Shown here: one piece after another, positions 21,554-36,052 of the stretch
Layout: the number at the start of each line of letters is the position of its first letter
How positions within the stretch are numbered: position 1 is the stretch's first letter
Assembly (NCBI GenBank): GCA_963676525.2
Contig: CAXXNB010000010.1
Location: forward strand, 19,797 to 83,796
DNA: 64,000 nucleotides
Reading direction: 5' to 3'
DNA from: an uncultured Vibrio sp.
GTDB lineage: Bacteria > Pseudomonadota > Gammaproteobacteria > Enterobacterales > Vibrionaceae
Translations under genes and position numbers: made by a program
The notes under the pieces: generated by a model
What the model was told of the DNA's origin: nothing
The model's input: the letters and a program-made list of their open reading frames with translations, nothing else
The model's database searches: none

Positions 21554-21655
21554 CTTGCTGAGCTTTGTCCATAACAAGGTTGTTTAAGAAAATTGTCTTA
21601 CCTCCCCACATACGCTATATTCATTTTTATTAAATATGAATATTTGAGGTGTTTC

Positions 21656-22256: not shown

Positions 22257-22282
22257 AGCGTGTTTAAGGAATGTTTGGGGAA

Positions 22283-22303
22283 TTATTCAATATTCTGGAT
22301 CTG
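22283..22303. repeat. Distal att site (displaced original yicC 3' end)
   Basis: ttattcaatattctggatctg. Minus strand encodes QIQNIE-TAA. 17 bp are identical and 19 of 21 match the copy at 36222-36242. Confidence 0.92.
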
Positions 22304-22363
22304 AATGAACTATTTTATATTAAGCTATTGATTATATTATATTATATTATTTTTGTTTTATTA

Positions 22364-22387
22364 TTTGTCACCAGCATGTCACCAATT
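22364..22387. promoter_or_regulatory. Probable integrase arm-type sites, left end
   Basis: Tandem TGTCACCA (tttgtcacca 22364-22373; tgtcaccaatt 22377-22387). The same motif recurs at the right end. Confidence 0.7.
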
Positions 22388-22595
22388 GAATTAAACTCTT
22401 CAATAAAGTACACATACAATTTCCCCAACCATCGTTATCGTCTGCATAAAAAGGTTATATACCTAAACCTAGTAATTATCAGGTGTAACTTATTGCTATT
22501 TCACAAAGATGCAATTTTTTCCCCCTGGTACTTTGCCAGAATTTCATTAGAATAATACTATATGTACCTAATTAAGTTTTAAGAGTATTTTCTAA

Positions 22596-23861
22596 ATGTC
22601 ACCCAAACCTAACGCTTTCAAAAGTGGCACCTATATCGATCTTTTCTCTGGTTGTGGAGGACTATCACTAGGTTTAGGTAATGCTGGTTGGAAGGGGCTT
22701 TTCGCTGTAGAAAAAGATTCAATGGCATTTTCTACTTTTAAGCACAACTTAATTGATGGAAAGCATGCACACTTTGATTGGCCTGAGTGGTTGCCCAAGC
22801 AATCCACAACAATTCAAAAACTTCTAGAAGAGTATCCGCAACAGTTATCTGATTTAAAAGGTAACGTTGATCTAATTGCGGGAGGACCACCTTGTCAGGG
22901 ATTCTCGATTGCGGGACTAAGAAATGCGAAAGATCCAAGAAATAAACTATCAGACGAATATATAAAAATGGTAGAGATAGTCTCTCCTAAGTTTCTCCTA
23001 TTAGAAAATGTACGCGGATTTAATACTTCTTTTAAAGCTCCTGAGGGTAAGAAAGCAAGAAAGCCTTATTCAATGATCGTAAAGGCGAAGCTTGAAAGTC
23101 TTGGTTATAAAGTGTTCACCGACTTTCTATGTAGCGCAGACTTTGGAGTTCCCCAAAAGCGCACTAGGTTCATAATGATAGGAATCAAAAATGAATTAGT
23201 AGGTCAAGACTTCCAGAATCCTTTTGAAACTATTAAAAAAAATAGAAGGGATTTCTTGATTAGTAAGAAGCTACCTCTACGTCAAGTTAAAGTAAAGGAC
23301 GCTATTGGTGATCTATTAGTGAAAACGAATGGATTGATATACCACTCAGGAACTGAGAAAAGTGGTTTTAAACAGGTTGACTATAAAGTTCCTTCAAAAC
23401 CTTCGAAGTACCTCCGAGTTATAAGGAAGGGGGCTGGAAACTCTAAGCCCAATAGTCTTCGATTGGCTAGACATAAAGAGAGCACTATAGAGAAATTCAC
23501 GAAGATTCAGAAAATCTGTAAGCCTGGTGTTAGTTTGAGTGAGCAGATGCGTTTGGAAATAGGAACTAAGAAGCAAGCGATAACCGTTTTAAATCCCAAT
23601 GAACCATCAACAACGCTAACTACCTTACCGGATGATTTACTTCACTATAGTGAGCCAAGAATTCTTACGGTAAGAGAAATGGCACGTATCCAATCATTTC
23701 CAGATAGTTTTGATATTTTAGGGAAGTATACCACCGGTGGTGATAGACGGACTCAAGAATGCCCTAGATATACTCAAATAGGAAATGCAGTTCCTCCTCT
23801 TCTTGGTGAGGCATTGGGTGCAACAATTAGGAATATAAGGACTAAGTTAGACAATGGATAA
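22596..23861 (+). CDS. DNA (cytosine-5)-methyltransferase
   Basis: Motif I FSGCGG, motif IV GGPPC(100)QGFS, ENV, QKRTRF, RILTVREMARIQSFP and QIGNAVPP. Confidence 0.96.
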   Translation: MSPKPNAFKSGTYIDLFSGCGGLSLGLGNAGWKGLFAVEKDSMAFSTFKHNLIDGKHAHFDWPEWLPKQSTTIQKLLEEYPQQLSDLKGNVDLIAGGPPCQGFSIAGLRNAKDPRNKLSDEYIKMVEIVSPKFLLLENVRGFNTSFKAPEGKKARKPYSMIVKAKLESLGYKVFTDFLCSADFGVPQKRTRFIMIGIKNELVGQDFQNPFETIKKNRRDFLISKKLPLRQVKVKDAIGDLLVKTNGLIYHSGTEKSGFKQVDYKVPSKPSKYLRVIRKGAGNSKPNSLRLARHKESTIEKFTKIQKICKPGVSLSEQMRLEIGTKKQAITVLNPNEPSTTLTTLPDDLLHYSEPRILTVREMARIQSFPDSFDILGKYTTGGDRRTQECPRYTQIGNAVPPLLGEALGATIRNIRTKLDNG

Positions 23862-26277
23862 GTTACAATTCGAGGTTAGCTCAGGGTTAAAATCTATTAT
23901 AGGTAAAGATCTAATAACAAATGATATTGTAGCTATCTTTGAATTAGTAAAAAATTCCTACGATGCAAACTCTAAAAGAGTAGATATCATTTTTACTACT
24001 AAGTTTGAGAAAATAAAGGTAGATAATGAGCATATAGAAGTTGCTTATAAAGATAAGATTTTTATCATTGATAGTGGCAAGGGGATGTCTTATCAAGATA
24101 TTAAAAATAAGTGGTTAAAAGTTGCATATTCAGCAAAAAAAGATGGAACGGAAGACCATTTACATAAAACCTATGCAGGGAATAAAGGTGTAGGTAGATT
24201 CTCCTGCGACAGGTTAGGTGCTAAATTAAGAATTCAATCAAAAACAGAAGATTGTGATGAAATCTCAAATTTATATATAGATTGGGGGGATTTTGATAAG
24301 GACTTTAAAAGGGAGTTTTCGAGTGTAGATATTCTTTATGAAAAAAAAGAAAGCTTTGATTTCCCCAAAGAGTTTAATGAAAAAATAAAATCTGGAGTTA
24401 TAATTGAAATTTCTAGTTTAAGAGAAAAATATTCTTGGACAACAAATAAATTACTAGATTTAAAAAGAAATTTAATTAAGCTTGTAGACCCTTTTGGTGA
24501 TTCTAGATTTGTATTTGATATATATATAAATGATAGTTATTCAAAAGAACGTGATGACAATATTATAAATAGTGCCCAACCAGAAGACGAATTTCAAACC
24601 AATATAATAAACGGGAAAATAAGTAATACAATAATAGATGTATTAAAATCCAAAACAACGTATCTTGAAGTTGAGTTGAAAGACAAACATTATTATTCAA
24701 CTCTTAAAGATAGAGGAGAGTTGGTTTATAAAATTAAAGAGCCAATTAATAAAAACAGTTTCTTAGTTGATAGTTCTTTTAAATGCGAATTGTTTTTTCT
24801 TAATAGATCAGCCAAATCTACTTTTACTCGGAGGATGGGAACACAATCAGTGAGTTATGGTTCGTTGTTCTTATTTAGGAATGGCTTTAGAGTTTATCCC
24901 GTAGGTGAAGAAGATAATGATTTTTGGGGATTAAATAGAAGAAAACAACAAGGTCATTCTAGATATCTCGGTAGTCGAGATATTTTAGGTAAAGTTGAAG
25001 TATGGGGAAATGAAGATGAATTTAAAGAAGCATCTAGCCGAGATATGGGATTAATTAAAACTGATGCTTCTGAGGAATTAAAAAAAGTAATTTTAGATAG
25101 AGTTGTAAAAAAATTGGAAGCATATGTTGTAGGTATACAATGGAAAGATGCTTTTGATAAAGATTTTGATACACCAGAAAGAATGTTTAGGGATGAAAAT
25201 AAAGTAAGAATATTAGATTTAGTTTCAAAGCTTTCTGGGACGGACTCTATAGAGCTTATTGATTATAACAATGATCTTGTTGCGATTTATGACGAAAAAT
25301 CTAAACACTTTGAGTCTACAATAGACAAAATAGTTGGGCTTGCTGGGGAAACTAATAATACTAAGCTTTTAAAATTAGTAAAAGAAGCAACATCTAGATT
25401 TGAATTAGAGAAGAAAAGGGCTGAAGAAGCTAAGAAGCAGGCTGATTTAGAACAGAAATTACGTCGTGAAGCTGAGCTTAAGGCCAGAGAAGAATCAATA
25501 CGACGGGCTGAGGAAGAGACTAAAAGGCGTCAAGCAGAAGCACAAGCCGAAAAATTTAAAGTAGAATCTGAACATGAAAAGTCACGAAATCTCTTTTTAT
25601 CTTCAATGGCAAAAGATAGAGATAAAGAAAAGTTAGAAAGTTTTATTCATCAATTAATAATTTATTCTGCTGCGACAAAAGACTTAATTAACAATGCAAT
25701 TTATAAAGTTAATAAGAATAAAGGAAATCTAGATAAGTTAGAGATATTAGATGTATTTTCAGAGATATTAAATAATAATGAAAAAATAATAACGACATCA
25801 AGATTTGCTGTAATGGCTGATTTTATGCTTGATTCAGCTTGCATAGAAGAAAATTTAACTGATTATATAGCTCAATATATGAGTGATATTATAACTGCAT
25901 ATAATCAAAAAATTAAAATAGAAAATAACATTCCTAATGATATTGATTTTGTTATCCGTTTTTCTCCAATCGAAATAGGGTTAATATTTGATAATTTGAT
26001 TTCTAATGCGCAAAAGGCAAGAGCTTCAAAAGTTATTGTAGATGCTAAGGTTGATAAAAATAATTACCTTATTATTACAGTCACTGATAATGGTAAAGGT
26101 ATTAGCTCACAAATAGATGCAACACGAATATTTGAGAAAGGGTACACTTCAACGAATGGATCCGGTCTCGGTTTATATCATGCGAAAACTCAAGTAGAAA
26201 AAATTGGTGGTGAGATATTACTCGATGAAACACAACCATTACGAGGCGCAAGATTTACTATAAGGATAAAGAAATGA
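23854..26277 (+). CDS. Fusion of MORC/MutL-type GHKL ATPase, coiled coil and histidine kinase (two ATP-binding GHKL domains)
   Basis: N-terminal ELVKNSYDA, IIDSGKGMS, GNKGVGRFS. Charged coiled coil around residues 500-580. Putative H-box FIH(599)QL. C-terminal DNLISNA, DNGKG, IFEKGYT, GSGLGLY. No TM segment. Confidence 0.88.
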   Translation: MDKLQFEVSSGLKSIIGKDLITNDIVAIFELVKNSYDANSKRVDIIFTTKFEKIKVDNEHIEVAYKDKIFIIDSGKGMSYQDIKNKWLKVAYSAKKDGTEDHLHKTYAGNKGVGRFSCDRLGAKLRIQSKTEDCDEISNLYIDWGDFDKDFKREFSSVDILYEKKESFDFPKEFNEKIKSGVIIEISSLREKYSWTTNKLLDLKRNLIKLVDPFGDSRFVFDIYINDSYSKERDDNIINSAQPEDEFQTNIINGKISNTIIDVLKSKTTYLEVELKDKHYYSTLKDRGELVYKIKEPINKNSFLVDSSFKCELFFLNRSAKSTFTRRMGTQSVSYGSLFLFRNGFRVYPVGEEDNDFWGLNRRKQQGHSRYLGSRDILGKVEVWGNEDEFKEASSRDMGLIKTDASEELKKVILDRVVKKLEAYVVGIQWKDAFDKDFDTPERMFRDENKVRILDLVSKLSGTDSIELIDYNNDLVAIYDEKSKHFESTIDKIVGLAGETNNTKLLKLVKEATSRFELEKKRAEEAKKQADLEQKLRREAELKAREESIRRAEEETKRRQAEAQAEKFKVESEHEKSRNLFLSSMAKDRDKEKLESFIHQLIIYSAATKDLINNAIYKVNKNKGNLDKLEILDVFSEILNNNEKIITTSRFAVMADFMLDSACIEENLTDYIAQYMSDIITAYNQKIKIENNIPNDIDFVIRFSPIEIGLIFDNLISNAQKARASKVIVDAKVDKNNYLIITVTDNGKGISSQIDATRIFEKGYTSTNGSGLGLYHAKTQVEKIGGEILLDETQPLRGARFTIRIKK

Positions 26278-27164
26278 AGTTAACTTATAATATTTTATGG
26301 TTTGAAGATCAATTTGATGCAATCACGCCATCAGTCGATAGGTTGGAAGGTTTTATTCGAGATGAAGGGCTAATACCTGTTTTAGAAAAGCGAAATGGCA
26401 TCACGGAGGAAGAAATTTATAAAATATCAGATAAACTTGAAAGAAATAATCCGTATGATTTGGTTATTTTTGATTTTGATATGGGAGAGGGTTCTCTTGA
26501 TGGTATTGAAATAGCTAAAATTCTTAGAACAAACATATATACAGATATGGTGTTTTATTCAGGAAAAAAACCAGATGAAATAAGTGAGCTTGTTTATAAA
26601 AATGGAGTTCAAGGAGTATATATTGCTCATAAATTGAATTTGATCGATGAAGTAGAGCCTTTAATTCAAGACCAAATAAAAAAAATATCAAGCTTAAATG
26701 GTGCTAGAGGGCTTGTGATGTCTGAGTCTAGTCAGATAGATATTGATCTTAGAAATAAGGTTATTAATGTTGTAAAAGGTTTTTCTAGAGAAGAGCTTGA
26801 TACGATTACCAAGAAAATAAAAGAAAGGTTAAGTAGTAAACTGAATGAAAGAGGGAAAAAGCTAGAAGAACTAGAAGTGTACGATATTATTTTTAGTACT
26901 ATGCTAATGGATAACGATACACTCAGGAAAACATGTAAGGATATTTATACATCCTCTACAATTTTTAATGAAGGTGGTAAATATCAAGTAACACAGCAAG
27001 AACGGAATTTTTTAGCTCATAATCCTCATGAATTACTTGATAATGGAGATATATTGGTTAAAGGTTTAAATAAAAATAGGACATATAACCATAGTGAATT
27101 TAGTCGAGTAAGGAAAGAACTCATTGAGCTTAAGAGTTTAATAAATGAAATTGATACACAATAA
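26274..27164 (+). CDS. Receiver (REC) domain protein with C-terminal helical domain bearing a HEPN-like RxxxxH motif
   Basis: ILWFED acidic pocket, LVIFD(67)FDM...DG and VFYSG. C-terminal R244-NFLA-H249. ATGA overlap with the kinase gene. REC call is firm; HEPN call rests on the motif only. Confidence 0.75.
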   Translation: MKLTYNILWFEDQFDAITPSVDRLEGFIRDEGLIPVLEKRNGITEEEIYKISDKLERNNPYDLVIFDFDMGEGSLDGIEIAKILRTNIYTDMVFYSGKKPDEISELVYKNGVQGVYIAHKLNLIDEVEPLIQDQIKKISSLNGARGLVMSESSQIDIDLRNKVINVVKGFSREELDTITKKIKERLSSKLNERGKKLEELEVYDIIFSTMLMDNDTLRKTCKDIYTSSTIFNEGGKYQVTQQERNFLAHNPHELLDNGDILVKGLNKNRTYNHSEFSRVRKELIELKSLINEIDTQ

Positions 27165-27609
27165 AACAGTCATCGTTGATCTTGATGGAACTTTAGCTTT
27201 AAACAAGCACCGAAGTCACTTTATTGATAAGTCCGATGGCAAGAAAGCTGACTGGGTCTCGTACTTTGAGGCTTGTGATCAAGACTTACCTCATAAACCA
27301 GTTATTGAGTCAGTAAATGCTCTAAAGAGGCAAGGGTATCGAATACATATTTTTTCTGCCAGAGGTGATTTAGTCAGAGATAAAACCGTTAATTGGCTTT
27401 CCCGATATGGTGTTATGTATGATGAACTTACAATGAGGGAAATGGATACATTTACAGCAGATGAAATACTGAAACGTTTTTGGTTGGTAGATCTTTATCC
27501 AAACTACAAAGATGACATTCTGTGTGTGTTCGATGACAGAGATAAAGTTGTCAAAATGTGGCGCGATTTGGGCCTCATATGCTTTCAAGTAGCAGAAGGA
27601 AACTTTTGA
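27145..27609 (+). CDS. HAD-superfamily phosphatase resembling the 3'-phosphatase domain of T4 polynucleotide kinase
   Basis: VIVD(12)LD(14)GTLA, IFSAR, LTMR...D...K and VFDDRDKVVKMWRDLGLICFQVA. Confidence 0.88.
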   Translation: MKLIHNKTVIVDLDGTLALNKHRSHFIDKSDGKKADWVSYFEACDQDLPHKPVIESVNALKRQGYRIHIFSARGDLVRDKTVNWLSRYGVMYDELTMREMDTFTADEILKRFWLVDLYPNYKDDILCVFDDRDKVVKMWRDLGLICFQVAEGNF

Positions 27610-27648
27610 TTTGCTCCCTTCGATAGGCTCTAACTATTAGAGATAATT

Positions 27649-28377
27649 ATGACAAACTGGAAGATATATGAAAGGTTCGTTGCTGAGTTGTGTTCTGATG
27701 ACTATCAGTCTTCTAGTGTTACAGTTATTCCGAATGCCAAAATTAAAGGCTGTCTAAGTCAAACACTTAGGCAAGTGGATGTACTCATTGATTCTCGTTT
27801 TGGTGACGATAGAAATCGTAGAATTATTGTCGACTCAAAGAAGTATAACCGTCCGTTAAACGTTAAAGATGTAGAAAGCTTTCATGGAATGATGCTCGAT
27901 TGTTCATCTAAAGCAGGTATTTTAGTTTGTCCCAACGGTTATAGTGAAGCCGCGAAGAAAAGAGCACAGGATTTCATTAATCTCAAAGTGGTATCCCTTG
28001 CTGAGCTAGAAAATATTGATCTTTCATTATGGGATGATTGTTTCAGTGAGAATTGTAACGATAAAGCTGAACGAGGGTTAGTATTGTGGGACAGCCCCAT
28101 GGGCATAGGTTCTACTATGTCCCCCGTATCAATTTCCTGCATCGGGAAGTGTGATGTCTGCGGTGACTTCCATATTTGGTGTTGGGACTGCGGTACTAAG
28201 TTTTCTGTAAGCAATGAAAGTGAAGCTCAATGTGCCTGTGGTTATCCCTGGTTTTGGCTTACAACTATTGAAGAAGATGACATTAGTTCAAATGAGTACG
28301 AAATATCAAAATCCGTATATTTGCTTTTAGTTACTCTAAAAGATGTTTTTATTGCGGATCGAAAGCCATTGAATTAA
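27649..28377 (+). CDS. Mrr-type PD-(D/E)xK restriction endonuclease with Cys-rich C-terminal domain
   Basis: YE(8)RFVAEL, RQVD(44)VL, IVD(62)SK(64)KY, VKDVESF and GYSEAA. C-terminal CxxxxC, CDVC, CWDC and CAC. Confidence 0.82.
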   Translation: MTNWKIYERFVAELCSDDYQSSSVTVIPNAKIKGCLSQTLRQVDVLIDSRFGDDRNRRIIVDSKKYNRPLNVKDVESFHGMMLDCSSKAGILVCPNGYSEAAKKRAQDFINLKVVSLAELENIDLSLWDDCFSENCNDKAERGLVLWDSPMGIGSTMSPVSISCIGKCDVCGDFHIWCWDCGTKFSVSNESEAQCACGYPWFWLTTIEEDDISSNEYEISKSVYLLLVTLKDVFIADRKPLN

Positions 28378-28514
28378 AAATCAACAGGGAACTTTAGTTA
28401 GGATGTTCCCCGTTATATATATATAAAATCAAATAAAAAATGTGCTAATTCAGAGTGTTTTTTTTGAGAACAGTTGTCTTCATCCCCGCATCGGCCGTTT
28501 GTTGCAGTCCATAA

Positions 28515-31109
28515 CTAAAGTCTACATCGCCCAACGGTTTTCTTCGTTACACTAGACTGTCGATTTAGTCCTTCTGGATATGAGAATTCGTGTAAGATAC
28601 TTTTGTCTAATTGATACTCGACAGCCAAAGAAGCATGACGATCTTGCTTCATCAACTCTGCTAGAGCTGCCTGTCTTAAGGAGTCTGTAGGCTCAACACC
28701 ATCTTCAAACACTCGTACCCGCTCATTAATTTCGGCCTTATTGACATAAATGTGCGACTCGTCTTTATGACGGCTTAGAGCGACATACGTTTCTCGTTGG
28801 CCCATCCGTCCAGAGTAGAGAGTGAACGTATTGCCATTTATGGTTGTACCTTGTGAACTAAAAATAGTTAAAGCGTATGCATGGCATAAATTGACTCCTA
28901 TCTCGTCGGTGTATTCTGAAGCTAGAAATGAAATAGTCCGGTTATTATCAAGAGTCACTGTGAGCTGAACATCATCATCTAATGATGTAATAGCTCGGAT
29001 AGTTCCCAAGGTGCCATTCGTCACTTGTAAGTATCTATATTCATTACGACAGAATTTAACGCGATCTCCTATAGAATAATCATATTCAAATTTTTTATCT
29101 GCGACACTGCATGTTAGCTTGATGTTCTCTGTACCAACTTTGCCTTCATTGATATAAATTTTCCGAATTGCCTTGCTGAGTTCTTTTACATATTTCCATT
29201 CGCGTGCAATCACTAATGATTGTTTCTCAGGGTGGGACTTTTGATAGTTATGCCAATCACTGATCAGAGCTTGTATGGCTTCTTCATTGTTATTGGCCCA
29301 GTGTAAACAGTCATGCTTTTGAAGAGACTCTAAAGCTTGTTCTGAGCGTTTATCTCGGAGATCGACGACGACTTGCTTTGCCCAAGTTTTTCTTTGGCGA
29401 CGGATTGTTTCAATCCGTTGTGTTCCCAGAATTTCCGGTTTGGATAGAAAGCGTAGGGCACCACCTCGAGAGATTGCGTCAAGTTGCTTATCTTCTCCGG
29501 TGAGAATGACCTTGCAGTTTGATTCTTTTGCTTCGTGCAGAAGTAATTGCAAGTCAGTACTGGGAAGTAATCCCGCTTCATCCACAATCAAAACATCAAC
29601 ATTAATCAAAGGATGTCTATTATCTTGAATAGTTGTTACTAATGAAGCCACTGTATGAGATTGAATTCCTGTTTCTTGCGTGAGATTATCGGCTGCTTTT
29701 TTCGCAATACAGGCTCCTTTGACAGTTAACTCTTGTTTCTCATAAGCAAGCTTTGCCGCAAGCATTAATGTCGTTTTACCTGCGCCAGCGCTACCTTGAG
29801 TGATAGATAGGTTACCGGAACATAATGTGTATTGAATTGCTTCTTTTTGTTCCTCACCGAAAGAGAACCTCAGTAGTTTTTCAGCAGTGATAACAGCATC
29901 ATTAACTTGTTTTACTGTGATATTTGTTGTGTTCCGTTTCGCTAGAATTTTGGCGTCGTTGATCATCAGGCGTTCACATAACAGAACATCTTCAGTGGTA
30001 AACTGACGAGAAAAAGCATTCTTAGGCTGTAATGAAAATATCTCTTCACTTTCAAGAATGAAGCGCGATAGTGTTTCGGCTTTCGTAGCATTTATGCCTT
30101 GATGTGAGGCTTGTACTGCGATAGTTCGAAATAGCTCTTGTTCAGTGAAAACCGCTTTTTTATCAGTGATCTCTGATAAAATTTTGTATTCATCAATTTC
30201 TGTGGGTGTCAGATTTTTCTCTTTCCGAGTTAAAGATTCAATATAAGTTTCTGACAAACCATAGGTTGCTAGTTCACTTTTCCATCTTTGAAATAGCTTA
30301 TCTCGAGTTATTTTCTTTTTGTTTTTTCTATTTAGAGTCTTAAATCGAGCTCCTTCTTTGCTTGAGCTGCTTTTTATTCCCGACTTTTTGAGCTCTCTTT
30401 CAATTTCTTTGGCTCGACTAGAAAAGATATCACATGCCTCTTTTGAGACCCCCGCTACTTGGAAAGAATCATTGTCAGGATCAACTTCGAATCCTAACTC
30501 TCTCATTTGATAAGCTAGCTCTGCACGGTAAATAGCGCCTGAAGCCATTTTCCAAAAATAAAGACTGTCTGACGTAATAGAACCCCATGAATCGTCAATA
30601 CGTGGAGCAATATTCAGAACGAGTACATGAGTATGTAGATGTGGATCTTCATTTCTATTTGTACAATGTTCAAAAGTGGCTAAAACTAATCCAGCTGTTT
30701 TTTCGTAGTTTGAAGAGCGTGCACAGCGGCGTGTCATTGCAGCGTGTCGTTCTATAAATTTGATAACTTTATCCACTGCTTTCTGTTGTGCTTTTTCAAT
30801 TTTGTTCTGTAATTCAGGAGAAGCTACTGCCCATGCTAAGGTGACACTTTTTGGTGCATTAAGAGTGCAATCCCATCCTGCGCGACGATTTTCCTTTCCA
30901 GCGTTTTGGACAAGTGCTTTACCGGATGGAGAATATCCATTCATCAATTTTAGATAATCGTCGTCATTGATAGTTTGCCCATGCAGTTGAAGAACTTTTG
31001 CACCTAATCCGAGCCAAGAACCTTTCGGCTCTCCATGACCAGAGTAATAATCTTCCTGCGCTAAATCAGCGTAGTAAGCAATGTTGTTTATCGGGTGAAT
31101 AGACATCAT
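28515..31109 (-). CDS. MobF (TrwC/TraI-like) relaxase with C-terminal RecD-like helicase
   Basis: YY(12,13)...DYY(21,22), HCTNRNEDPHLHTH HUH motif, QGSAGAGKTT, VDEAG, GEDKQL, SSQGTT and YVALSR. Confidence 0.95.
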   Translation of the reverse strand: MMSIHPINNIAYYADLAQEDYYSGHGEPKGSWLGLGAKVLQLHGQTINDDDYLKLMNGYSPSGKALVQNAGKENRRAGWDCTLNAPKSVTLAWAVASPELQNKIEKAQQKAVDKVIKFIERHAAMTRRCARSSNYEKTAGLVLATFEHCTNRNEDPHLHTHVLVLNIAPRIDDSWGSITSDSLYFWKMASGAIYRAELAYQMRELGFEVDPDNDSFQVAGVSKEACDIFSSRAKEIERELKKSGIKSSSSKEGARFKTLNRKNKKKITRDKLFQRWKSELATYGLSETYIESLTRKEKNLTPTEIDEYKILSEITDKKAVFTEQELFRTIAVQASHQGINATKAETLSRFILESEEIFSLQPKNAFSRQFTTEDVLLCERLMINDAKILAKRNTTNITVKQVNDAVITAEKLLRFSFGEEQKEAIQYTLCSGNLSITQGSAGAGKTTLMLAAKLAYEKQELTVKGACIAKKAADNLTQETGIQSHTVASLVTTIQDNRHPLINVDVLIVDEAGLLPSTDLQLLLHEAKESNCKVILTGEDKQLDAISRGGALRFLSKPEILGTQRIETIRRQRKTWAKQVVVDLRDKRSEQALESLQKHDCLHWANNNEEAIQALISDWHNYQKSHPEKQSLVIAREWKYVKELSKAIRKIYINEGKVGTENIKLTCSVADKKFEYDYSIGDRVKFCRNEYRYLQVTNGTLGTIRAITSLDDDVQLTVTLDNNRTISFLASEYTDEIGVNLCHAYALTIFSSQGTTINGNTFTLYSGRMGQRETYVALSRHKDESHIYVNKAEINERVRVFEDGVEPTDSLRQAALAELMKQDRHASLAVEYQLDKSILHEFSYPEGLNRQSSVTKKTVGRCRL

Positions 31110-31113
31110 AGGG

Positions 31114-32790
31114 TTACTTCCTTTTGTTTAAGCGATTGGTTTGTGGCTGCGTTTTTTGTGTTACTGGCTTTTTTGAATAAGGGGTAGTTACCCATTTTGC
31201 TGGCACTTTCCTTTTGGCTTTTTGAATGCTTTGAAATAACGGCCATCTCAGTTTGTATACAGCATTCCAGCCTGGAATCTGTATATATCCTTCGACACCT
31301 TTCCGTGTTGGTTGCCCCAGCTGGACTAAATCTGATGCCTTTACAACTGGTGTTTCTTCTCTTTTCCCAATTCTATCTGGATGGTCATAATCAGGAGTTT
31401 CTGCTGTGTACTCACCAAAAATATTTGCACTGTATTTTGCATCATCGCCTGCTGCGCCCATCCTAAAAGTGATGACATTGGATAGTAAGTTGATTATTGA
31501 GTCTGTTTCTTCTTTACCGTAAACAGAATGAAGTTGAGAGATTGACTGAGTACAAAGTACTGACCGAGCACCATTTTCTCTAGCTAATTCAAGCCATTTC
31601 TTTATATTTGGGTTGCGTGGAAGGTTGGCAAATTCGTCAATGAACAACCATGTTTTCCTTTTAGAAGAAAAAGTTCCAGCTAGATAATGCTTTGTCATTA
31701 GAGAAAGAATGGCATTACATAGCGGTTCTCCAAGGCTAGGAAATTGACTGTGTGCTTGAATCATAATGACATGTTTTGCTTGGCTATCTTTAAGCCAACT
31801 TTTCAGACTAAATGTTGATCTAGATTGTTCCGGCCACGCTTTTGCCAAATCTTCAATCCAACTCAATTTGCTCATAATATGAACATAAAAACCTTGGGTT
31901 GTTTTTGATTCGGACTCAATGAAACTTGTCACTATTGGATGATGAACAACAAATTCTGAGCGAGCTTTGTCAGGGCTAAACATAAATTGTTTATAAAGGT
32001 CATTCCAGCCCCATGCATTTCCTTGTACATGGATTAATTTCATCAACATGCTGACAAAAATAACTCTGGCACCTTGATCCCAGATTGGATCAGGAGTTTT
32101 AGAGTCGGGGATTAAACACAGCGCCAAAAGTTCTGCATCTTGCTTGGTTGTAATATCTTCACAAATATTCCAGCAAATGCTGCGTTTGTCCCATGGTGCA
32201 AGTAAGATAGTGTTATTTGGGCTATAAAAGCTCTCTGTATATTCCCCTTTCTCATCATAGATCACAGCATAGTCGCCTCGATTGAGTGCCAATTGAACAA
32301 GTAGCTTGAATGCTGTCGATTTACCTGCTCCTGTGGTTCCGTTAATTAGAAAGTTGTTTTGCTCCCTTGCTTCTGTGATTTTGATGTTTGGATGGACTTT
32401 TATACCAGTGCGGGTGAATGGGTTGCCTCGTAAATCTTTTCTGTGCTGAGCTTTGGCATGTCGAATTGCTTTTCGTCCTGAGTACAGCTTGGGGCCAGCA
32501 ATGTATTTCAGCTCATATGATTTGTGTCTTGATTTGAAGATAAATGTAATAAAAGAAACAGATAATGCGAGAGCTACAGATAAAGTGATAGCATTGTTTT
32601 CACTGTGGACTACTGATTGCCAGTCACCATCTCGTCCATAATTTTGAAGCACTTCCCTTAGCCACATCTTATTGCTATGAGGTGATTTAATCCAAGAAAA
32701 CCCCTTCAAAGCCATTGTCACTGGAATAGCCAGCAGAATGCTGGCCAAAATAAAAATAATGGTCTGGTAGATACGAGAAATTAGAATCAT
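31114..32790 (-). CDS. Type IV coupling protein (TrwB/TraD-like)
   Basis: Two N-terminal TM segments, GTTGAGKST, IYDEKGEY, FIDEFANL and TQSISQL..VYG. Confidence 0.92.
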   Translation of the reverse strand: MILISRIYQTIIFILASILLAIPVTMALKGFSWIKSPHSNKMWLREVLQNYGRDGDWQSVVHSENNAITLSVALALSVSFITFIFKSRHKSYELKYIAGPKLYSGRKAIRHAKAQHRKDLRGNPFTRTGIKVHPNIKITEAREQNNFLINGTTGAGKSTAFKLLVQLALNRGDYAVIYDEKGEYTESFYSPNNTILLAPWDKRSICWNICEDITTKQDAELLALCLIPDSKTPDPIWDQGARVIFVSMLMKLIHVQGNAWGWNDLYKQFMFSPDKARSEFVVHHPIVTSFIESESKTTQGFYVHIMSKLSWIEDLAKAWPEQSRSTFSLKSWLKDSQAKHVIMIQAHSQFPSLGEPLCNAILSLMTKHYLAGTFSSKRKTWLFIDEFANLPRNPNIKKWLELARENGARSVLCTQSISQLHSVYGKEETDSIINLLSNVITFRMGAAGDDAKYSANIFGEYTAETPDYDHPDRIGKREETPVVKASDLVQLGQPTRKGVEGYIQIPGWNAVYKLRWPLFQSIQKAKRKVPAKWVTTPYSKKPVTQKTQPQTNRLNKRK

Positions 32791-33092
32791 GACTTACTCT
32801 CTGGCTGTAGGTTTGAACGATATTTTTTTCTAGCTTGCAGCCGTTGTTGATCATCAATATCGGCTATCGCAGCAACCATCTCGAATATCCGTCTCTCTAG
32901 TCGTTTTTCGAGCTGTTCAATTTTAAAATTCATATTCTTTAGATTTATATAGTCATCAATTAGCAAGCGTCCTAGCTCGGAATTGCTCATGTTTTTTTCT
33001 TCCGCTGCTCGCGCAAAAAGGTTATATTGATGGGTAGTAACTCGGAAAGTGATGCTTCTTCCGGTATCTGGGCTGCGTTTTGAACGAGTCAT
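32787..33092 (-). CDS. Ribbon-helix-helix relaxosome accessory protein (TrwA/MobC-like)
   Basis: SITFRVT...FARAAEEKNMSNSELGRLLID RHH pattern. Overlaps the T4CP start. Likely start at ATG 33092. Confidence 0.7.
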   Translation of the reverse strand: MTRSKRSPDTGRSITFRVTTHQYNLFARAAEEKNMSNSELGRLLIDDYINLKNMNFKIEQLEKRLERRIFEMVAAIADIDDQQRLQARKKYRSNLQPESKS

Positions 33093-33176
33093 ATTTCTTT
33101 CTCTTAATGTATACAGTGTAAGCACTTTGATTTTGTTTGATTTTTTTGACGAAAAATCTGACATTTGTATTCAGAG

Positions 33177-33223
33177 TAAATACACGCTAACCTCTTGAAT
33201 ATGTTGGATTTAGCGTGTATTTA
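33177..33223. promoter_or_regulatory. 14-bp perfect inverted repeat in the candidate oriT region
   Basis: taaatacacgctaa (33177-33190) and ttagcgtgtattta (33210-33223), directly upstream of the RHH-T4CP-relaxase operon. oriT role is inferred from position. Confidence 0.55.
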
Positions 33224-33266
33224 TGACCTAACTAAAGCTTACTTAGAAGCGTTCAGGTCTGAGTCC

Positions 33267-33626
33267 TTAAAGAACGTTGTAGGAAAAGTCAGGCGCTCTT
33301 TTTGAATAGATGGAAAGGGCTAAAGCCATAACTCTTAAAGTATCGATATCGATTAAGAGACAATTTTCTTGTTTGGCCTGTCTTATCTCTGGACTGCTTA
33401 CTACTTCAAGCAGGCTTGAGCACTCCACAGGGTCAAGTTCTATGCCTAATGTGTGTTCCGCCTCTTCTATGGATTGTGCAAGTAATTCATAAACACCACG
33501 AGCCATAGAGTGGTGACATCTGCCGATTTCCATAGCAATCGATAAATTTTGATCTTTTGCTTGGAGCCGAGAGATTATTTTCTTTTGGCGTGGTGATTCA
33601 TCTAAATAGCTCATAATTTTCTCCAT
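33267..33626 (-). CDS. Hypothetical protein, co-transcribed with the AlpA gene
   Basis: 119-aa ORF starting 2 bp after the AlpA stop. No recognisable motif. Confidence 0.6.
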   Translation of the reverse strand: MEKIMSYLDESPRQKKIISRLQAKDQNLSIAMEIGRCHHSMARGVYELLAQSIEEAEHTLGIELDPVECSSLLEVVSSPEIRQAKQENCLLIDIDTLRVMALALSIYSKRAPDFSYNVL

Positions 33627-33628
33627 TT

Positions 33629-33820
33629 TTATTGGTTATCTAACCAGTTAGTTATATCTTTCAATTTCCAGCCTAATATTTTATTCCCGGTGTAAACTCC
33701 GGATGGAAAGTTCGCTTCAGTATTTCGACGTAATCTATCTAAAGTCGCTGTACTGATATTTAATATTTGGCAGACTTGCCGTTTTCGTAAGAGTAGTGGT
33801 GTTAGTTGCTGGTACTTCAT
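33629..33820 (-). CDS. AlpA-family HTH protein (probable recombination directionality factor)
   Basis: LLRKRQVCQILNISTATLDRL...FP...ILGW...I.NW pattern. AAGAGG RBS. Confidence 0.88.
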   Translation of the reverse strand: MKYQQLTPLLLRKRQVCQILNISTATLDRLRRNTEANFPSGVYTGNKILGWKLKDITNWLDNQ

Positions 33821-33935
33821 CTTTTTTCCTCTTTAGTAATCACCTTGTATGCTCTTATGGTATTGTTTGAAGGCATCTGTGTATTGGTCGTGATAGATTA
33901 GCTTCACGGCATTGATTTTTTTATGGTAATGTGAT

Positions 33936-34841
33936 ATGGGAATTCCAATCGATAAGCTAAGAACGATTTTTTGGGCTCATAGAGTCCTAGAAATTGATGG
34001 CCTTGATGGGCTATTGAAAAAAGGTAAGTCCGATAAAAATAAAATCGTTAAGTTGATTGAGGAGAGGTATGAAAAAGTAGAACCTTTATTTAAAGACGAT
34101 GATATTTTTGATGTTGCAATGGAATTATTTTTTGATAAAGCCTCGTGGAAAAGATATTTGTCTGGGGAAACGCCACCAAGCTATAGTAAAGAAGGAAATT
34201 TTTTTACAAATGGAATAAACAGGCACTCTTACAAGGTTAATATTGTTGAAACTTTGTTTCCTGAAGTAAAAGGTTATTACCTCAATGGCCCATATGGATT
34301 AATTGATGTGATGTCTTGTGATAACTTAGATGACGCTTTACATACTTTCGAAAACAATTTGAAATCTTTTGTGAATATTCATGAGGCTAATCATGTGCGT
34401 CATGAGCAAGCTGATATTCAACCTTTTACGTTCTCAGACACTTGGGAAGCGATTAAAAACCGAATGAAACATGTTCCTGAGAATAATTTCGACATTATGA
34501 AATGCTCATTACCGAGTTTGTATGAACTTCCATCGAAGTGGTCTCCTGTGTCTGAAGCTCCATTATTCCTGCTTATGGCTATAGGATATATTGAAGCTCG
34601 TTTTATGCAGCGCTTTCCGTCTTACCAGTCTGTGCTTGATGGAACACAACTAGCTGAGATTGCTATCTTTGATGACGAAAAGCGCATTGAATCTGGGATT
34701 TTGTATTTAGAAAAAAAATATCAGATAAATCGAAAGATTTGGTTTGAGGATGATGTTTTTAATATGGCAAGAAAGAATATCCTCGATAGAGGACGTGAAG
34801 CATTTCCTGAACTTGCCGAATTTGATTTTGATAATGGCTAG
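33936..34841 (+). CDS. Hypothetical protein (301 aa), divergent from AlpA and convergent with the integrase
   Basis: Long ORF filling the gap between backbone genes. No family recognised. Confidence 0.75.
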   Translation: MGIPIDKLRTIFWAHRVLEIDGLDGLLKKGKSDKNKIVKLIEERYEKVEPLFKDDDIFDVAMELFFDKASWKRYLSGETPPSYSKEGNFFTNGINRHSYKVNIVETLFPEVKGYYLNGPYGLIDVMSCDNLDDALHTFENNLKSFVNIHEANHVRHEQADIQPFTFSDTWEAIKNRMKHVPENNFDIMKCSLPSLYELPSKWSPVSEAPLFLLMAIGYIEARFMQRFPSYQSVLDGTQLAEIAIFDDEKRIESGILYLEKKYQINRKIWFEDDVFNMARKNILDRGREAFPELAEFDFDNG

Positions 34842-34844
34842 TAT

Positions 34845-36041
34845 TTATTCTCCTAATATATAAGGAGTAAGCTTCAAGCTAAGTATTTCATATGCTTCTC
34901 TTCGTTGTTCTAAGTAATCATGTATATCGTAAGTCCCTGCTATTTTGGGGAGCTTATGATTTAAGCATCTTTCAGCTATATGCGGAAGGATATGGCAACC
35001 TGACAGTAAGGTTCTGAAAGTCCGTCGTAGGTCATGCACAGTGAAGTGTGCAATATCGACATCATCCTGAGATAGTAATTTATTCAGAGCTGCGTTTAGT
35101 GTGTCGGGTGATACATGTCCAAACCTTTTAGATGATCGTCGCTTGGGAAATACATAAATACTGTCTGCTGCCCTGATTTTTAATTCAGCAAAAATATCCC
35201 AGATTTTTGATGGGAGAGGAATTGAAATTGCCAAGGAATTTTTTGTTCTTTCTTCCGGGATATGCCAAAGCTTTTCTTCAAAGTCGAATTCGTCCCATTT
35301 GGCTGCTATCAATTCTCCTTTCCTAACACCGAGTAGTAAAAGTAAGCAGCAGGCCAAGTAGTTTTCACGAACAAAAATATCGTTGTGTGATTTTATTGCT
35401 TTGAACAGCGACTCGATTTCATCGATTGATAAGACTCGTTTTCGTGGCTTTTCTTCACCGCCAGCATCATGAATATCAAATGCATATGCTGGGTTATATT
35501 TTATTAACCCCATCTTGATAGCATGGTTGAAAAGTTGTTTAAGATAGCTTAGAGCATCATTTGAGATAGAAGGGCGATTATCGTCGTTAATAGCTCTTAT
35601 TATTTGAGCAATATCCCGAGGTTCCACCTTGCTTACTTCCATCTTGCCAATGAGTGGAGATATATCTTTCCGGTAGACGCGTTCCGGAATTTGAGGGTTT
35701 TTGATTCTTTTGCTTTTTACTGATAACCAATCATCGGCTAGGTGATCAACAGTATCAAATTCTAGCCTTTCAGTGCGTTTTTTCTCGATCTGTGGGTCGT
35801 TCCCGTTTTTCAATTCATATTTTAATAGAATCGCACGTTCTTTTGCTTCAGCACCTTTAATGCCCGCCGGTGGCACTCCATACTTAGCTATTGTATGTTC
35901 CTTTCTTTGCCCTTTATATGTATATCGAAAAGTCCAGAATGCGGACATTGGGCTTACTACTCGAAAATAAAGCCCTGTAGATATGCGATGACGCCTAGGC
36001 TCGCCCTCTTTCATTAAGGCTATGAGATCATTATCTTTCAT
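34845..36041 (-). CDS. Tyrosine recombinase/integrase (P4-like, with arm-binding domain)
   Basis: N-terminal GLYFRV...WTFRY...G arm domain. Catalytic GVRKGEL, HDLRR, LNH and terminal TY. Confidence 0.96.
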   Translation of the reverse strand: MKDNDLIALMKEGEPRRHRISTGLYFRVVSPMSAFWTFRYTYKGQRKEHTIAKYGVPPAGIKGAEAKERAILLKYELKNGNDPQIEKKRTERLEFDTVDHLADDWLSVKSKRIKNPQIPERVYRKDISPLIGKMEVSKVEPRDIAQIIRAINDDNRPSISNDALSYLKQLFNHAIKMGLIKYNPAYAFDIHDAGGEEKPRKRVLSIDEIESLFKAIKSHNDIFVRENYLACCLLLLLGVRKGELIAAKWDEFDFEEKLWHIPEERTKNSLAISIPLPSKIWDIFAELKIRAADSIYVFPKRRSSKRFGHVSPDTLNAALNKLLSQDDVDIAHFTVHDLRRTFRTLLSGCHILPHIAERCLNHKLPKIAGTYDIHDYLEQRREAYEILSLKLTPYILGE

Positions 36042-36052
36042 GATGGGTGCTC

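What the first reader, a model, noticed from the sequence alone, without database searches (positions are those of the whole stretch)
23854..26277. One polypeptide with two different GHKL ATP-binding domains and no membrane sensor
Seen: an N-terminal Hsp90/MutL/MORC-type fold (ELVKNSYDA, DSGKGM, GNKGVGRFS), a middle region, a long E/K/R/A-rich coiled coil, then a complete kinase set (H599 candidate, DNLISNA, DNGKG, IFEKG, GSGLGL). There is no TM segment. Established: MutL/MORC GHKL domains dimerise on ATP and clamp DNA; histidine kinases switch on through coiled-coil register changes. Inference: DNA clamping by the N-terminal ATPase is the sensory input transmitted down the coiled coil, making this a DNA-sensing histidine kinase.
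Basis: partly seen in the sequence, partly recalled or inferred. Interest (0 to 1): 0.72.

Follow-up and report, generated by a model that had tools for sequence, protein, structure and literature searches.

The report
Methylase-linked two-ATPase sensor kinase
This gene encodes a soluble histidine kinase whose input end is a second, MORC/Hsp90-type ATPase; together with a DNA cytosine methylase and a receiver protein carrying a probable RNase it forms a widespread, experimentally untested cassette that looks like a restriction-modification system wired through a phosphorelay, an architecture already described by computer analysis in 2021.

Summary
ORF 23854-26277 (+) encodes an 807-aa soluble protein. 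It has an N-terminal MORC/Hsp90-type GHKL ATPase plus transducer-like domain, a long charged helix, a two-helix DHp hairpin and a complete kinase ATP-binding domain. H599 is the only invariant histidine (113/113 relatives).

In 79 of 80 related loci from at least 12 phyla the gene overlaps a about 300-aa receiver protein by about 4 nt. That partner has an invariant D67 and an invariant RNxxxH (HEPN-type) motif. A C5 cytosine methyltransferase is adjacent in 79 of 80. The HAD phosphatase and Mrr nuclease of this window are rare accessories.

The dual-GHKL/receiver/Dcm design was published in 2021 (HEF_HK/Response_reg_2). A related methylase-kinase-receiver-nuclease system, Ambrosia, was shown to block phages in 2025. 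This scan has also reported the same family on other genomes.

The protein here belongs to a shorter sister family that the Pfam models PF19191/PF19192 do not recognise. It has H-Q instead of H-E, and its REC-HEPN partner was not found in the literature searched.

DNA clamping as the kinase input is plausible but untested. Support is circumstantial, and no kinase segment co-varies with the methylase.

Verdict: a real, moderately interesting new variant of a known kind.

The parts
22596..23861 (+). C5 cytosine DNA methyltransferase (Dcm, 421 aa); overlaps the kinase start by 8 nt
   Evidence: Pfam DNA_methylase E 3.5e-59. Motifs FxGxG, PC, ENV, QxRxR and GN are all present. A Dcm is adjacent in 79/80 related loci.
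23854..26277 (+). Dual-GHKL soluble histidine kinase (807 aa, P0001)
23854..25143 (+). Input module, residues 1-430: Bergerat-fold ATPase (Pfam match 26-150) plus transducer-like middle domain
   Evidence: HATPase_c_3 E 2e-20. E30, N34, D37, D73, G75, G77, G109, K111, G112 and G114 are invariant. Foldseek matches Hsp90, the SMCHD1 ATPase module and Topo VI-B over 450-530 columns, E about 1e-10. hhalign to true HEF_HK proteins gives prob 99.8% over query HMM positions 8-416 (386 aligned columns).
25360..25551 (+). Long charged helix, residues 503-566 (69% E/K/R/A); presumed coiled coil in the dimer
   Evidence: AlphaFold2 helix 503-566; composition. The coiled-coil state is inferred, because only a monomer was modelled.
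25552..25614 (+). Conserved low-confidence linker, residues 567-587 (E575 and R578 invariant; N579, F581 and L582 nearly so)
   Evidence: pLDDT <50 for 565-589; conservation. Role unknown.
25615..25815 (+). DHp-like helical hairpin, residues 588-654, with phospho-acceptor candidate H599 (codon 25648-25650) followed by invariant Q600
   Evidence: Helices 588-621 and 628-654. H599 is H in 113/113 relatives and is the only invariant His. Foldseek aligns the C-terminal about 240 residues with the DHp+CA of HK853, WalK, CpxA and DivL (TM about 0.5 on the target).
25843..26271 (+). Kinase catalytic (CA) domain, residues 664-806, with N, G1, F and G2 boxes
   Evidence: HATPase_c E 1.7e-20. PDB sequence hits to PrrB, YycG and ZraS. 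N714, N718, D745, G747, G749, F760, G769, G771 and G773 are invariant.
26274..27164 (+). Receiver-HEPN partner (296 aa); start overlaps the kinase stop by 4 nt (ATGA)
   Evidence: Present in 79/80 loci, typically with the same 4-nt overlap. AlphaFold2 pLDDT 93.5.
26274..26633 (+). Receiver (REC) domain, residues 1-120: D12, D62, D67, S96, K120
   Evidence: (beta-alpha)5 fold in the model. Foldseek matches CheY, PmrA and VicR receivers, TM 0.6-0.7. D67, Y95 and S96 are invariant.
26694..27149 (+). All-alpha C-terminal domain, residues 141-292; probable HEPN RNase with R244-N-F-L-A-H249 (nt 27003-27020)
   Evidence: R244 and H249 are invariant and N245 is 92% conserved in 80 sequences. The commonest Pfam families among 67 members are HEPN_RiboL-PSP (6, best E 2.4e-5), Abi_2 (6), HEPN_LA2681 (2) and HEPN_Swt1 (2). 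The fold was not confirmed independently.
27145..27609 (+). Accessory HAD-type PNKP-like 3'-phosphatase (154 aa, DLDGT at 12-16)
   Evidence: Pfam HAD_PNKP E 2e-30; motif. Found in only 3/80 related loci.
27649..28377 (+). Accessory Mrr_cat (PD-(D/E)xK) nuclease (242 aa) with a Cys-rich C-terminal half
   Evidence: Pfam Mrr_cat E 1.9e-9. Found in only 2/80 loci even with a profile. It recurs beside the cassette in Pectobacterium polaris.
28515..36041 (-). Rest of the mobilisable island that carries the cassette: MobF relaxase 28515-31109, TraD-like coupling protein 31114-32790, tyrosine integrase 34845-36041, inserted next to yicC (36222-37088)
   Evidence: NCBIfam; Pfam. GC falls to 29-32% at 24-27 kb against 42-48% in the flanks.

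Best explanation
P0001 is the sensor kinase of a three-gene core cassette (Dcm methyltransferase, dual-GHKL kinase, receiver-HEPN protein). The cassette acts as a methylation-linked defence or exclusion module carried on a mobilisable island.

Proposed mechanism:
1. The protein dimerises through its DHp hairpin.
2. The N-terminal MORC/Hsp90-type ATPase-transducer module is the input. Its ATP-driven closure, most likely on or in response to DNA lacking the cassette's own m5C mark, is passed down the long charged helix.
3. The C-terminal CA domain phosphorylates H599.
4. The phosphoryl group moves to D67 of the overlapping receiver protein.
5. Receiver dimerisation assembles the composite RNxxxH site of its HEPN domain, which cleaves RNA and stops growth or phage development.
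6. The Dcm keeps resident DNA from triggering the relay.
7. In this Vibrio-type clade a PNKP-like phosphatase and an Mrr-type nuclease were added.

Shown here: domain architecture, residue conservation, gene linkage and fold similarity.
Inferred: kinase activity, phosphotransfer, RNase output, defence role, and above all the nature of the cue.

My odds for each step: functional His-Asp relay about 0.75; defence or exclusion role about 0.65; DNA as the cue about 0.35.
For: Architecture and competence:
- Two GHKL domains, each E 2e-20.
- All ATP-binding motifs of both halves are invariant in 113 relatives.
- H599 is the only invariant His and sits in helix 1 of a two-helix hairpin directly before the CA domain.
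- Foldseek matches the DHp+CA of HK853, WalK and CpxA, and separately Hsp90, SMCHD1 and Topo VI-B for the first about 500 residues.
- No TM segment and no other sensor domain.

Relay partner:
- Present in 79/80 loci, mostly with a 4-nt overlap.
- Kinase and receiver identities co-vary (r 0.90).
- D67 and S96 are invariant; the REC fold has pLDDT 93.5.

Output:
- Invariant R244/H249 with N245.
- HEPN families are the commonest weak Pfam matches.
- No HTH was detected and no nuclease gene is conserved in the cassette.

Link to DNA methylation:
- An intact Dcm is adjacent in 79/80 loci, and Vsr in 14.
- The one exception still has a Vsr.
- The N-terminal ATPase domain is closest to the BbrUII/HgiDII restriction enzymes (E 1e-16; hhalign 97.9%). 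These sit next to a Dcm in 4/4 loci, in the same arrangements.

Precedents:
- Detocs: a kinase-to-receiver-effector relay that defends, lost with the His or Asp mutants.
- Ambrosia: methylase + HK/Hsp90-like ATPase + REC + nuclease defends, and D60A abolishes defence.
- paraMORC-HEPN fusions in R-M contexts.

Mobility: island cargo with low GC.
Against: - There is no experiment on this family.
- H599 is followed by an invariant Gln, not the Glu/Asp that HisKA kinases use. No Pfam DHp model, including HEF_HK, matches.
- The conserved receiver Lys is Arg in 95% of the family.
- The long helix and the DHp are separated by a low-confidence segment (565-589), so a continuous signalling helix is not modelled.
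- HEPN rests on a motif and weak profile hits. Foldseek's top 50 hits were all receivers, and the PDB profile search found no HEPN.
- For DNA as the cue: homology to restriction enzymes covers only the ATPase domain. No sequence-reading domain was identified. The same Dcm (72-96% identity) pairs with kinases 39-49% identical, and no kinase segment follows the Dcm.
- The 2021 paper proposed NTP sensing, and the Ambrosia authors do not identify the cue.
Confidence: 0.4

Rival explanations
1. Same relay and output, but the cue is not DNA. The N-terminal GHKL module would sense something else produced or perturbed by infection:
- a phage protein bound as a client, in the manner of Hsp90;
- the ATP/dNTP pool, as the 2021 paper speculated;
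- inhibition or loss of the Dcm partner, a guard logic like PrrC with EcoprrI.
For: - The top Foldseek hits of the input module are Hsp90 chaperones.
- No DNA-reading domain was found.
- Dcm and kinase are only loosely co-evolved, and the same Dcm pairs with very different kinases.
- NTP sensing was suggested in PMC8011034.
- The PrrC/RloC analogy was drawn for paraMORC-HEPN fusions.
Against: - The near-obligate Dcm (79/80) and frequent Vsr are easier to explain if DNA methylation state matters directly.
- The closest characterised relatives of the ATPase domain are DNA-cutting enzymes.
- Hsp90, MORC and Topo VI-B share one fold, so the Hsp90 ranking says little.
Confidence: 0.25
2. The pair is an ordinary regulatory two-component system that switches on transcription of neighbouring R-M genes. 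This was proposed for the HEF_HK family and is the working model for Ambrosia.
For: The published models say so. Ambrosia genes are induced on infection. The window has a nuclease gene (Mrr_cat) downstream in the same operon.
Against: - The receiver protein has no detectable DNA-binding domain. Its output domain is all-alpha with an invariant RNxxxH.
- No nuclease or other target gene is conserved beside the cassette: HAD in 3/80, Mrr in 2/80.
- The genes overlap as one operon with no internal terminator-like site.
Confidence: 0.07
3. The kinase-like half is not a kinase. Both GHKL domains would act as ATPases in an R-M-type DNA-handling machine. The receiver would be a phosphorylation-independent, perhaps nucleotide-binding, switch of the kind described in other conflict systems.
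For: - H-Q instead of H-E/D, and no DHp Pfam match.
- Arg replaces the receiver Lys in most members.
- Weak cREC_REC matches (E 0.094 in the window, 3.7e-4 in L021).
- Kinase-independent receivers in conflict systems are discussed in PMC8195603.
Against: - The sole invariant His is exactly where a phospho-acceptor should be.
- D67, D12 and S96 are conserved.
- Complete N/G1/F/G2 boxes.
- Tight kinase-receiver coupling and co-variation.
- His and Asp mutants abolish defence in Detocs, and the Asp mutant does so in Ambrosia.
Confidence: 0.1
4. Same molecular mechanism, but the biological role is addiction rather than phage defence. If the island and its Dcm are lost, unmethylated host DNA triggers the relay and the RNase kills the segregant, which stabilises the mobile element.
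For: The cassette is the main cargo of a mobilisable island. R-M systems are known to behave as selfish addiction modules, as discussed in PMC8011034.
Against: - Kinase and receiver would be lost together with the Dcm, so killing needs long-lived proteins.
- The cassette is also found in many chromosomal contexts without conserved neighbours, as defence genes typically are.
- The related Ambrosia system does protect against phages.
Confidence: 0.1

Closest known systems
HEF_HK / Response_reg_2 'two-component-system-like' pairs linked to C5 methyltransferases and paraMORC ATPases (Bellieny-Rabelo, Pretorius & Moleleki 2021, PMC8011034)
   Same: - N-terminal HATPase_c_3, a DHp-like region and a C-terminal HATPase_c in one soluble protein.
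- An adjacent receiver-like gene and an adjacent Dcm.
- The N-terminal about 400 residues are homologous (hhalign 99.8%, E 1.8e-29).
- Same Dcm-kinase-receiver gene order.
   Different: - True PF19191 members found here are about 1000 aa, with 555-617-aa partners that match PF19192.
- The window's family is about 800 aa with about 300-aa partners, and neither Pfam model reaches significance.
- H599 is followed by Gln, not Glu.
- The partner's output domain carries a HEPN motif not reported in that paper.
- The paper started from Pectobacterium genes, and this family also occurs in Pectobacterium. Its orthologous groups may therefore have included some members.
Ambrosia anti-phage system, AbrR-AbrA-AbrB-AbrC-AbrD (van den Berg et al., bioRxiv 10.1101/2025.09.30.679545)
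   Same: A methyltransferase, a 'sensor histidine kinase/Hsp90-like ATPase', a receiver protein and a nuclease lie in one operon. Defence needs the receiver Asp. The window's Dcm-kinase-receiver-...-Mrr order resembles it.
   Different: - Ambrosia has an N6-adenine methylase, a REC-wHTH regulator, an HNH type IV nuclease and an XRE repressor.
- The cassette here has a C5 methylase and a REC-HEPN protein, no XRE was seen, and most family members have no nuclease.
- Sequence relatedness to AbrB could not be tested, because no sequence was available.
Detocs (DtcA/DtcB/DtcC; Rousset et al. 2023, bioRxiv 10.1101/2023.01.24.525353)
   Same: A cytoplasmic kinase phosphorylates a receiver fused directly to a cell-arresting effector rather than to a DNA-binding domain. 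It is experimentally a defence system.
   Different: Detocs senses through TPR repeats, has a buffer receiver (DtcB) and mostly a PNP ATP-nucleosidase effector. It has no methyltransferase and no second GHKL domain.
BbrUII/HgiDII family restriction enzymes (NCBIfam NF050001)
   Same: The N-terminal Bergerat ATPase domain is homologous (E 1e-16; hhalign 97.9%). These genes sit beside a Dcm, upstream or convergent, exactly as here.
   Different: The restriction enzymes are about 620-680 aa, with a different C-terminal two-thirds and no kinase or receiver. Homology ends at about residue 215.
MORC / paraMORC GHKL-S5 ATPases of R-M systems (Iyer, Abhiman & Aravind 2008, PMC2292703), and paraMORC-HEPN (Ymh) fusions (Anantharaman et al. 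2013, PMC3710099)
   Same: A GHKL plus transducer module in Dcm/Vsr contexts. In the Ymh fusions the same kind of ATPase is coupled to a HEPN domain, and the authors compare it with PrrC/RloC.
   Different: Here a complete His-Asp phosphorelay stands between the ATPase and the HEPN domain. No helicase or endonuclease partner is conserved.

Membership tests
Sensor histidine kinase (class I, DHp + CA) | Two-helix DHp hairpin carrying a conserved phospho-acceptor His, directly N-terminal to the CA domain | tested here: met
   Helices 588-621 and 628-654 precede CA 664-806. H599 is H in 113/113 relatives and is the only invariant His. Foldseek matches the DHp+CA of HK853, WalK and CpxA.
Sensor histidine kinase (class I, DHp + CA) | CA domain with N, G1, F and G2 boxes | tested here: met
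   HATPase_c E 1.7e-20. N714, N718, D745, G747, G749, F760, G769, G771 and G773 are invariant.
Sensor histidine kinase (class I, DHp + CA) | Acidic residue next to the His (the HisKA H-E/D motif), or a match to a curated DHp model | tested here: not met
   Q600 is invariant. No HisKA-type Pfam model matched at E<=10. Not all DHp families have the acidic residue.
Sensor histidine kinase (class I, DHp + CA) | Cognate receiver with the phospho-acceptor Asp, genetically coupled | tested here: met
   Present in 79/80 loci, mostly with a 4-nt overlap. D67 is invariant and the fold is REC.
Sensor histidine kinase (class I, DHp + CA) | Autophosphorylation and phosphotransfer | not testable with these tools
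   Needs biochemistry.
HEF_HK / Response_reg_2 family (PF19191 / PF19192) | Match to the HEF_HK model PF19191 above its cut-off | tested here: not met
   No hit in P0001 or in 5 relatives. Searching the whole genome found nothing at this locus. Genuine members score 30-96 bits in hmmscan and 31-100 bits in the genome search.
HEF_HK / Response_reg_2 family (PF19191 / PF19192) | Partner matches the Response_reg_2 model PF19192 | tested here: not met
   Only 1 of 6 partners gives a sub-threshold hit (18 bits against a cut-off of 27). Genuine partners score 51-101 bits.
HEF_HK / Response_reg_2 family (PF19191 / PF19192) | HATPase_c_3 at the N terminus, HATPase_c at the C terminus, adjacent C5 methyltransferase, soluble | tested here: met
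   The N-terminal module is homologous to genuine members.
MORC / paraMORC GHKL ATPases | Bergerat-fold motifs I-III intact | tested here: met
   E30, N34, D37, D73xGxG77 and G109xKGxG114 are invariant; HATPase_c_3.
MORC / paraMORC GHKL ATPases | S5-type transducer domain after the ATPase | tested here: inconclusive
   Foldseek aligns about 450-530 columns with Hsp90, SMCHD1 and Topo VI-B, but TM is only 0.24-0.37. The S5 fold and the catalytic Lys were not identified residue by residue.
MORC / paraMORC GHKL ATPases | ATP-dependent dimerisation and DNA entrapment | not testable with these tools
Ambrosia system | N6-adenine methylase, REC-wHTH, HNH type IV nuclease, XRE regulator | tested here: not met
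   The window has a C5 methylase, REC-HEPN and Mrr_cat, with no XRE or HNH detected.
Ambrosia system | Sequence homology of the kinase to AbrB | not tested
HEPN RNase superfamily (for the partner's output domain) | Conserved Rx4-6H motif with a polar residue after the Arg | tested here: met
   R244-N-F-L-A-H249. R and H are invariant and N is 92% conserved in 80 sequences.
HEPN RNase superfamily (for the partner's output domain) | All-alpha HEPN fold, or a significant match to a HEPN profile | tested here: inconclusive
   The model is all-alpha with a small beta insert. 16 of 67 members give weak hits to four HEPN Pfam families, best E 2.4e-5. There is no HEPN in the Foldseek top 50 or in the PDB profile search.

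The most novel reading that the evidence does not exclude
This would be a restriction-modification system without restriction. The kinase would be the first histidine kinase whose sensory input is the ATP-driven closure of a MORC/MutL-type GHKL clamp on DNA lacking the resident m5C mark. Detection of foreign DNA would then be reported by a His-Asp phosphorelay to a HEPN RNase instead of by DNA cleavage.
Probability: 0.3. Interest if true: 0.8.

Novelty: new variant of a known kind. Interest (0 to 1): 0.45.

Why it matters
If the relay works as proposed, it would link two large fields: two-component signalling, and epigenetic self/non-self discrimination.

It would offer a tractable bacterial model of how a MORC/Hsp90-type ATPase converts a nucleic-acid or client state into a signal. 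That question is still open for eukaryotic MORCs and SMCHD1.

The cassette is compact (three genes), soluble and found in at least 12 phyla. It has obvious point mutants (E30, H599, D67, R244/H249, Dcm C100), so the hypothesis can be tested directly.

It would also add a phosphorelay-gated RNase to the catalogue of anti-phage effectors. As it stands, it is an uncharacterised relative of systems already described (2021) and partly validated (Ambrosia, 2025).

Tried and rejected
- PADLOC models gave no hit for the kinase, receiver or phosphatase.
- MADS (methylation-associated defence system) was considered and dropped. The text read describes mad1-8 only in general terms (ATPases, nucleases, methyltransferases, kinases; a P-loop NTPase/Toprim-like nuclease MAD3-MAD4 module). 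The only histidine kinase mentioned there is a flanking boundary gene, and nothing read matched this cassette.
- The DefensePredictor paper lists HATPase and REC only as abbreviations in a figure legend for predicted, unvalidated systems, which gave nothing usable.
- The 2013 HEPN survey does not describe a receiver-HEPN partner of a kinase. No paper in the library contains 'REC-HEPN' or its variants.
- Independent fold confirmation of HEPN failed. Foldseek on the full receiver model returned only receiver domains in the top 50. A PDB profile search with the C-terminal domain found nothing meaningful.
- I looked for a kinase segment that co-varies with the Dcm, as a candidate methylation or sequence reader. 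There was only a weak bump at residues 271-300, which is not convincing.
- Phage and plasmid collections hold only distant, partial relatives.
- The promoter/terminator scan was uninformative beyond the absence of internal terminator-like sites.
- The supplementary tables of the 2021 paper are not held. Whether its orthologous groups contained this exact family could not be settled.

Full report
**Observation**

The + strand ORF 23854-26277 is open (807 aa). The reverse strand is closed.

Pfam finds two independent GHKL domains:
- HATPase_c_3 (MutL/MORC/Hsp90-like) at residues 26-150, E 2e-20.
- HATPase_c (kinase type) at residues 707-806, E 2e-20.

PDB sequence hits for the C-terminal part are all histidine-kinase catalytic domains: PrrB, YycG and ZraS. 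The highest 19-residue hydropathy mean is 1.27, so there is no membrane segment. Residues 503-566 are 69% E/K/R/A.

**Conservation**

- A word-indexed search returned 2977 relatives. The best 120 are essentially all full length (one covers 85%) and all carry both Pfam domains.
- An exhaustive search of 1.84 billion representatives gave 432 clusters at E<=1e-30.
- In 113 aligned relatives both nucleotide sites are invariant:
  - N-terminal site: E30, N34, D37, D73, G75, G77, G109, K111, G112, G114.
  - Kinase site: N714, N718, D745, G747, G749, F760, G769, G771, G773.
- H599 is H in 113/113 relatives and is the only invariant histidine. It is followed by an invariant Gln.

**Structure**

An AlphaFold2 model built on this alignment has mean pLDDT 80.9. 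Its parts are:
- a beta-rich ATPase plus middle domain up to about residue 430;
- helical segments and one long helix at 503-566;
- a low-confidence but conserved segment at 565-589;
- a helical hairpin at 588-621 and 628-654, with H599 in the first helix;
- an alpha/beta CA domain at 664-806.

Foldseek against the PDB gives two sets of hits at E about 1e-10 to 1e-9:
- Hsp90/GRP94, the SMCHD1 ATPase module and Topo VI-B, over 450-530 columns.
- The DHp+CA cores of HK853, WalK/YycG, DivL and CpxA, over about 240 columns (TM about 0.5 on the target).

**Surroundings**

On the same strand the genes run as follows:
- Dcm (22596-23861, all catalytic motifs intact), overlapping the kinase by 8 nt.
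- The kinase, overlapping the 296-aa gene by 4 nt.
- The 296-aa gene, overlapping a HAD/PNKP-type phosphatase by 20 nt.
- An Mrr_cat nuclease after a further 39 nt.

There is no terminator-like site inside this stretch. The block is the cargo of an island with a MobF relaxase, a coupling protein and an integrase next to yicC. GC drops to 29-32% inside the island.

**Related loci**

A scan of one genome per species found 405 loci encoding a relative. The 80 best come from at least 12 phyla. In these 80 loci:
- The about 300-aa partner follows the kinase in 79. The exception is a contig end.
- The overlap is 4 nt in most cases.
- A Dcm is adjacent in 79: convergent just downstream in 47, directly upstream in at least 24.
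- A Vsr gene is present in 14.
- No other neighbour is conserved.

The phosphatase occurs in 3 loci and the Mrr nuclease in 2, even when searched with a profile. An Mrr_cat gene also lies beside the cassette in Pectobacterium polaris. The one locus without a Dcm still has a Vsr. The core is therefore three genes.

**The partner**

Its model (pLDDT 93.5) is a (beta-alpha)5 receiver followed by an all-alpha domain. Foldseek confirms the receiver fold: CheY, PmrA and VicR, TM 0.6-0.7.

D67, Y95-S96, R145-G146, R244 and H249 are invariant. D12, D62 and N245 are nearly so. The usual receiver Lys (K120 here) is Arg in 95% of sequences.

R244-N-F-L-A-H249 is a textbook HEPN Rx4-6H motif. When 67 C-terminal domains were scanned singly, the most frequent Pfam families were HEPN_RiboL-PSP (6, best E 2.4e-5), Abi_2 (6), HEPN_LA2681 (2) and HEPN_Swt1 (2). 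This makes HEPN likely but not proven, because there was no structural confirmation.

**What is known**

- Bellieny-Rabelo et al. 2021 described HATPase_c_3 + HEF_HK + HATPase_c proteins. These are soluble, lie next to a receiver-like gene (91.6% linkage) and next to C5 methylases. The authors suggested that the N-terminal GHKL is the sensor, perhaps of NTPs, and that the pair controls R-M systems. They reported no experiments.
- The Pfam models from that work do not recognise the window's proteins or ten relatives.
- Genuine PF19191 members, found in 3 of 401 genomes of the class, are about 1000 aa with 555-617-aa PF19192 partners, in the same Dcm-kinase-receiver order.
- Their first about 400-500 residues are clearly homologous to ours (hhalign 99.8%, E 1.8e-29). 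The window's protein thus belongs to a shorter sister family with a different DHp (H-Q) and a different output.
- Other dual-GHKL variants exist: 711 aa with a Dcm on a Stenotrophomonas plasmid, and 875 aa with an N6 methylase on a Hymenobacter plasmid.
- A lead from earlier notes of this scan took me to van den Berg et al. 2025, which I read. Ambrosia has an XRE regulator, an N6 methylase, an HK/Hsp90-like ATPase, a REC-wHTH protein and an HNH nuclease. It protects Pseudomonas aeruginosa from phages and needs the receiver Asp.
- Detocs shows that a kinase-to-receiver-effector relay can itself be a defence system.
- paraMORC-HEPN fusions in R-M contexts were noted in 2013 and compared with PrrC/RloC.

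**Is the input DNA?**

For:
- The near-obligate Dcm and Vsr.
- The ATPase domain is most similar to the BbrUII/HgiDII restriction enzymes (E 1e-16).
- Those enzyme genes lie next to a Dcm in 4 of 4 loci I fetched, in the same two arrangements.

Against:
- The homology ends at residue about 215.
- I found no sequence-reading domain.
- Kinase and receiver identities co-vary tightly (r 0.90), while the Dcm is looser (0.72-0.75).
- Dcm genes 72-96% identical sit beside kinases only 39-49% identical.
- No kinase segment follows the Dcm.

I therefore put DNA as the cue at about one in three. A functional His-Asp relay is at about three in four, and a defence or exclusion role at about two in three.

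**Verdict**

The architecture is already in the literature, and this scan has met the same family on other genomes.

What is not in the literature I could search is this sister family's H-Q DHp and its REC-HEPN output. I class it as a new variant of a known kind, of moderate interest.

One tool (look-up of sequencing runs) was closed, so expression could not be checked.

Noticed in passing
window 27145-27609 (+): A stand-alone PNKP-type HAD 3'-phosphatase (DLDGT at 12-16) overlaps the end of the REC-HEPN gene. It is present in only 3 of 80 related loci. HEPN RNases leave 2',3'-cyclic phosphate ends. The phosphatase might reset the damage, or make the ends unusable for RtcB-type ligases. This is speculation.
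   Followed up: partly
window 27649-28377 (+); L094 11056-11811: The Mrr_cat nuclease has a Cys-rich C-terminal half that looks like a zinc ribbon. It is rare beside the cassette (2/80) but recurs in Pectobacterium polaris after a convergent Dcm. A methylase together with a type IV-like nuclease in one operon recalls the Ambrosia layout.
   Followed up: partly
window about 22280-36200: The cassette is cargo of a mobilisable island next to yicC (36222-37088). The island carries a MobF relaxase, a TraD-like coupling protein and a tyrosine integrase (34845-36041). GC is 29-32% at 24-27 kb. No mating-pair genes were seen.
   Followed up: partly
window 21593-22218 (+): A ParD/ParE toxin-antitoxin pair lies directly upstream, just outside the low-GC block.
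   Followed up: no
L002 (record titled Balneola sp. MAG): An 8.5-kb contig carries the whole five-gene cassette at 77-82% protein identity to this Vibrio-like window. Either the contig was mis-binned or the island moved recently between distant phyla.
   Followed up: no
L088 4995-7130; L089 4596-7223: Two further dual-GHKL kinase variants occur on plasmids. One is 711 aa, directly after a Dcm, in Stenotrophomonas rhizophila. The other is 875 aa, in an operon with an N6 methylase, a few kb from a Piwi-domain gene in Hymenobacter.
   Followed up: partly
window 26274-26633 (receiver domain): The conserved receiver Lys (K120 here) is Arg in 95% of the family. Some members give weak matches to the cREC_REC model ('cyclic-phosphate processing receiver'; E 3.7e-4 in L021).
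   Followed up: no
window 25552-25614 (kinase residues 567-587): A strongly conserved stretch (E575 and R578 invariant; N579, F581 and L582 nearly so) lies between the long helix and the DHp. It is modelled with pLDDT <50. It may be an interaction or switch element.
   Followed up: no
L047 10346-17391: This is the only locus without a Dcm. It still has a convergent Vsr after the receiver gene, followed by an 1843-aa ORF with a weak TrwB-like match.
   Followed up: partly
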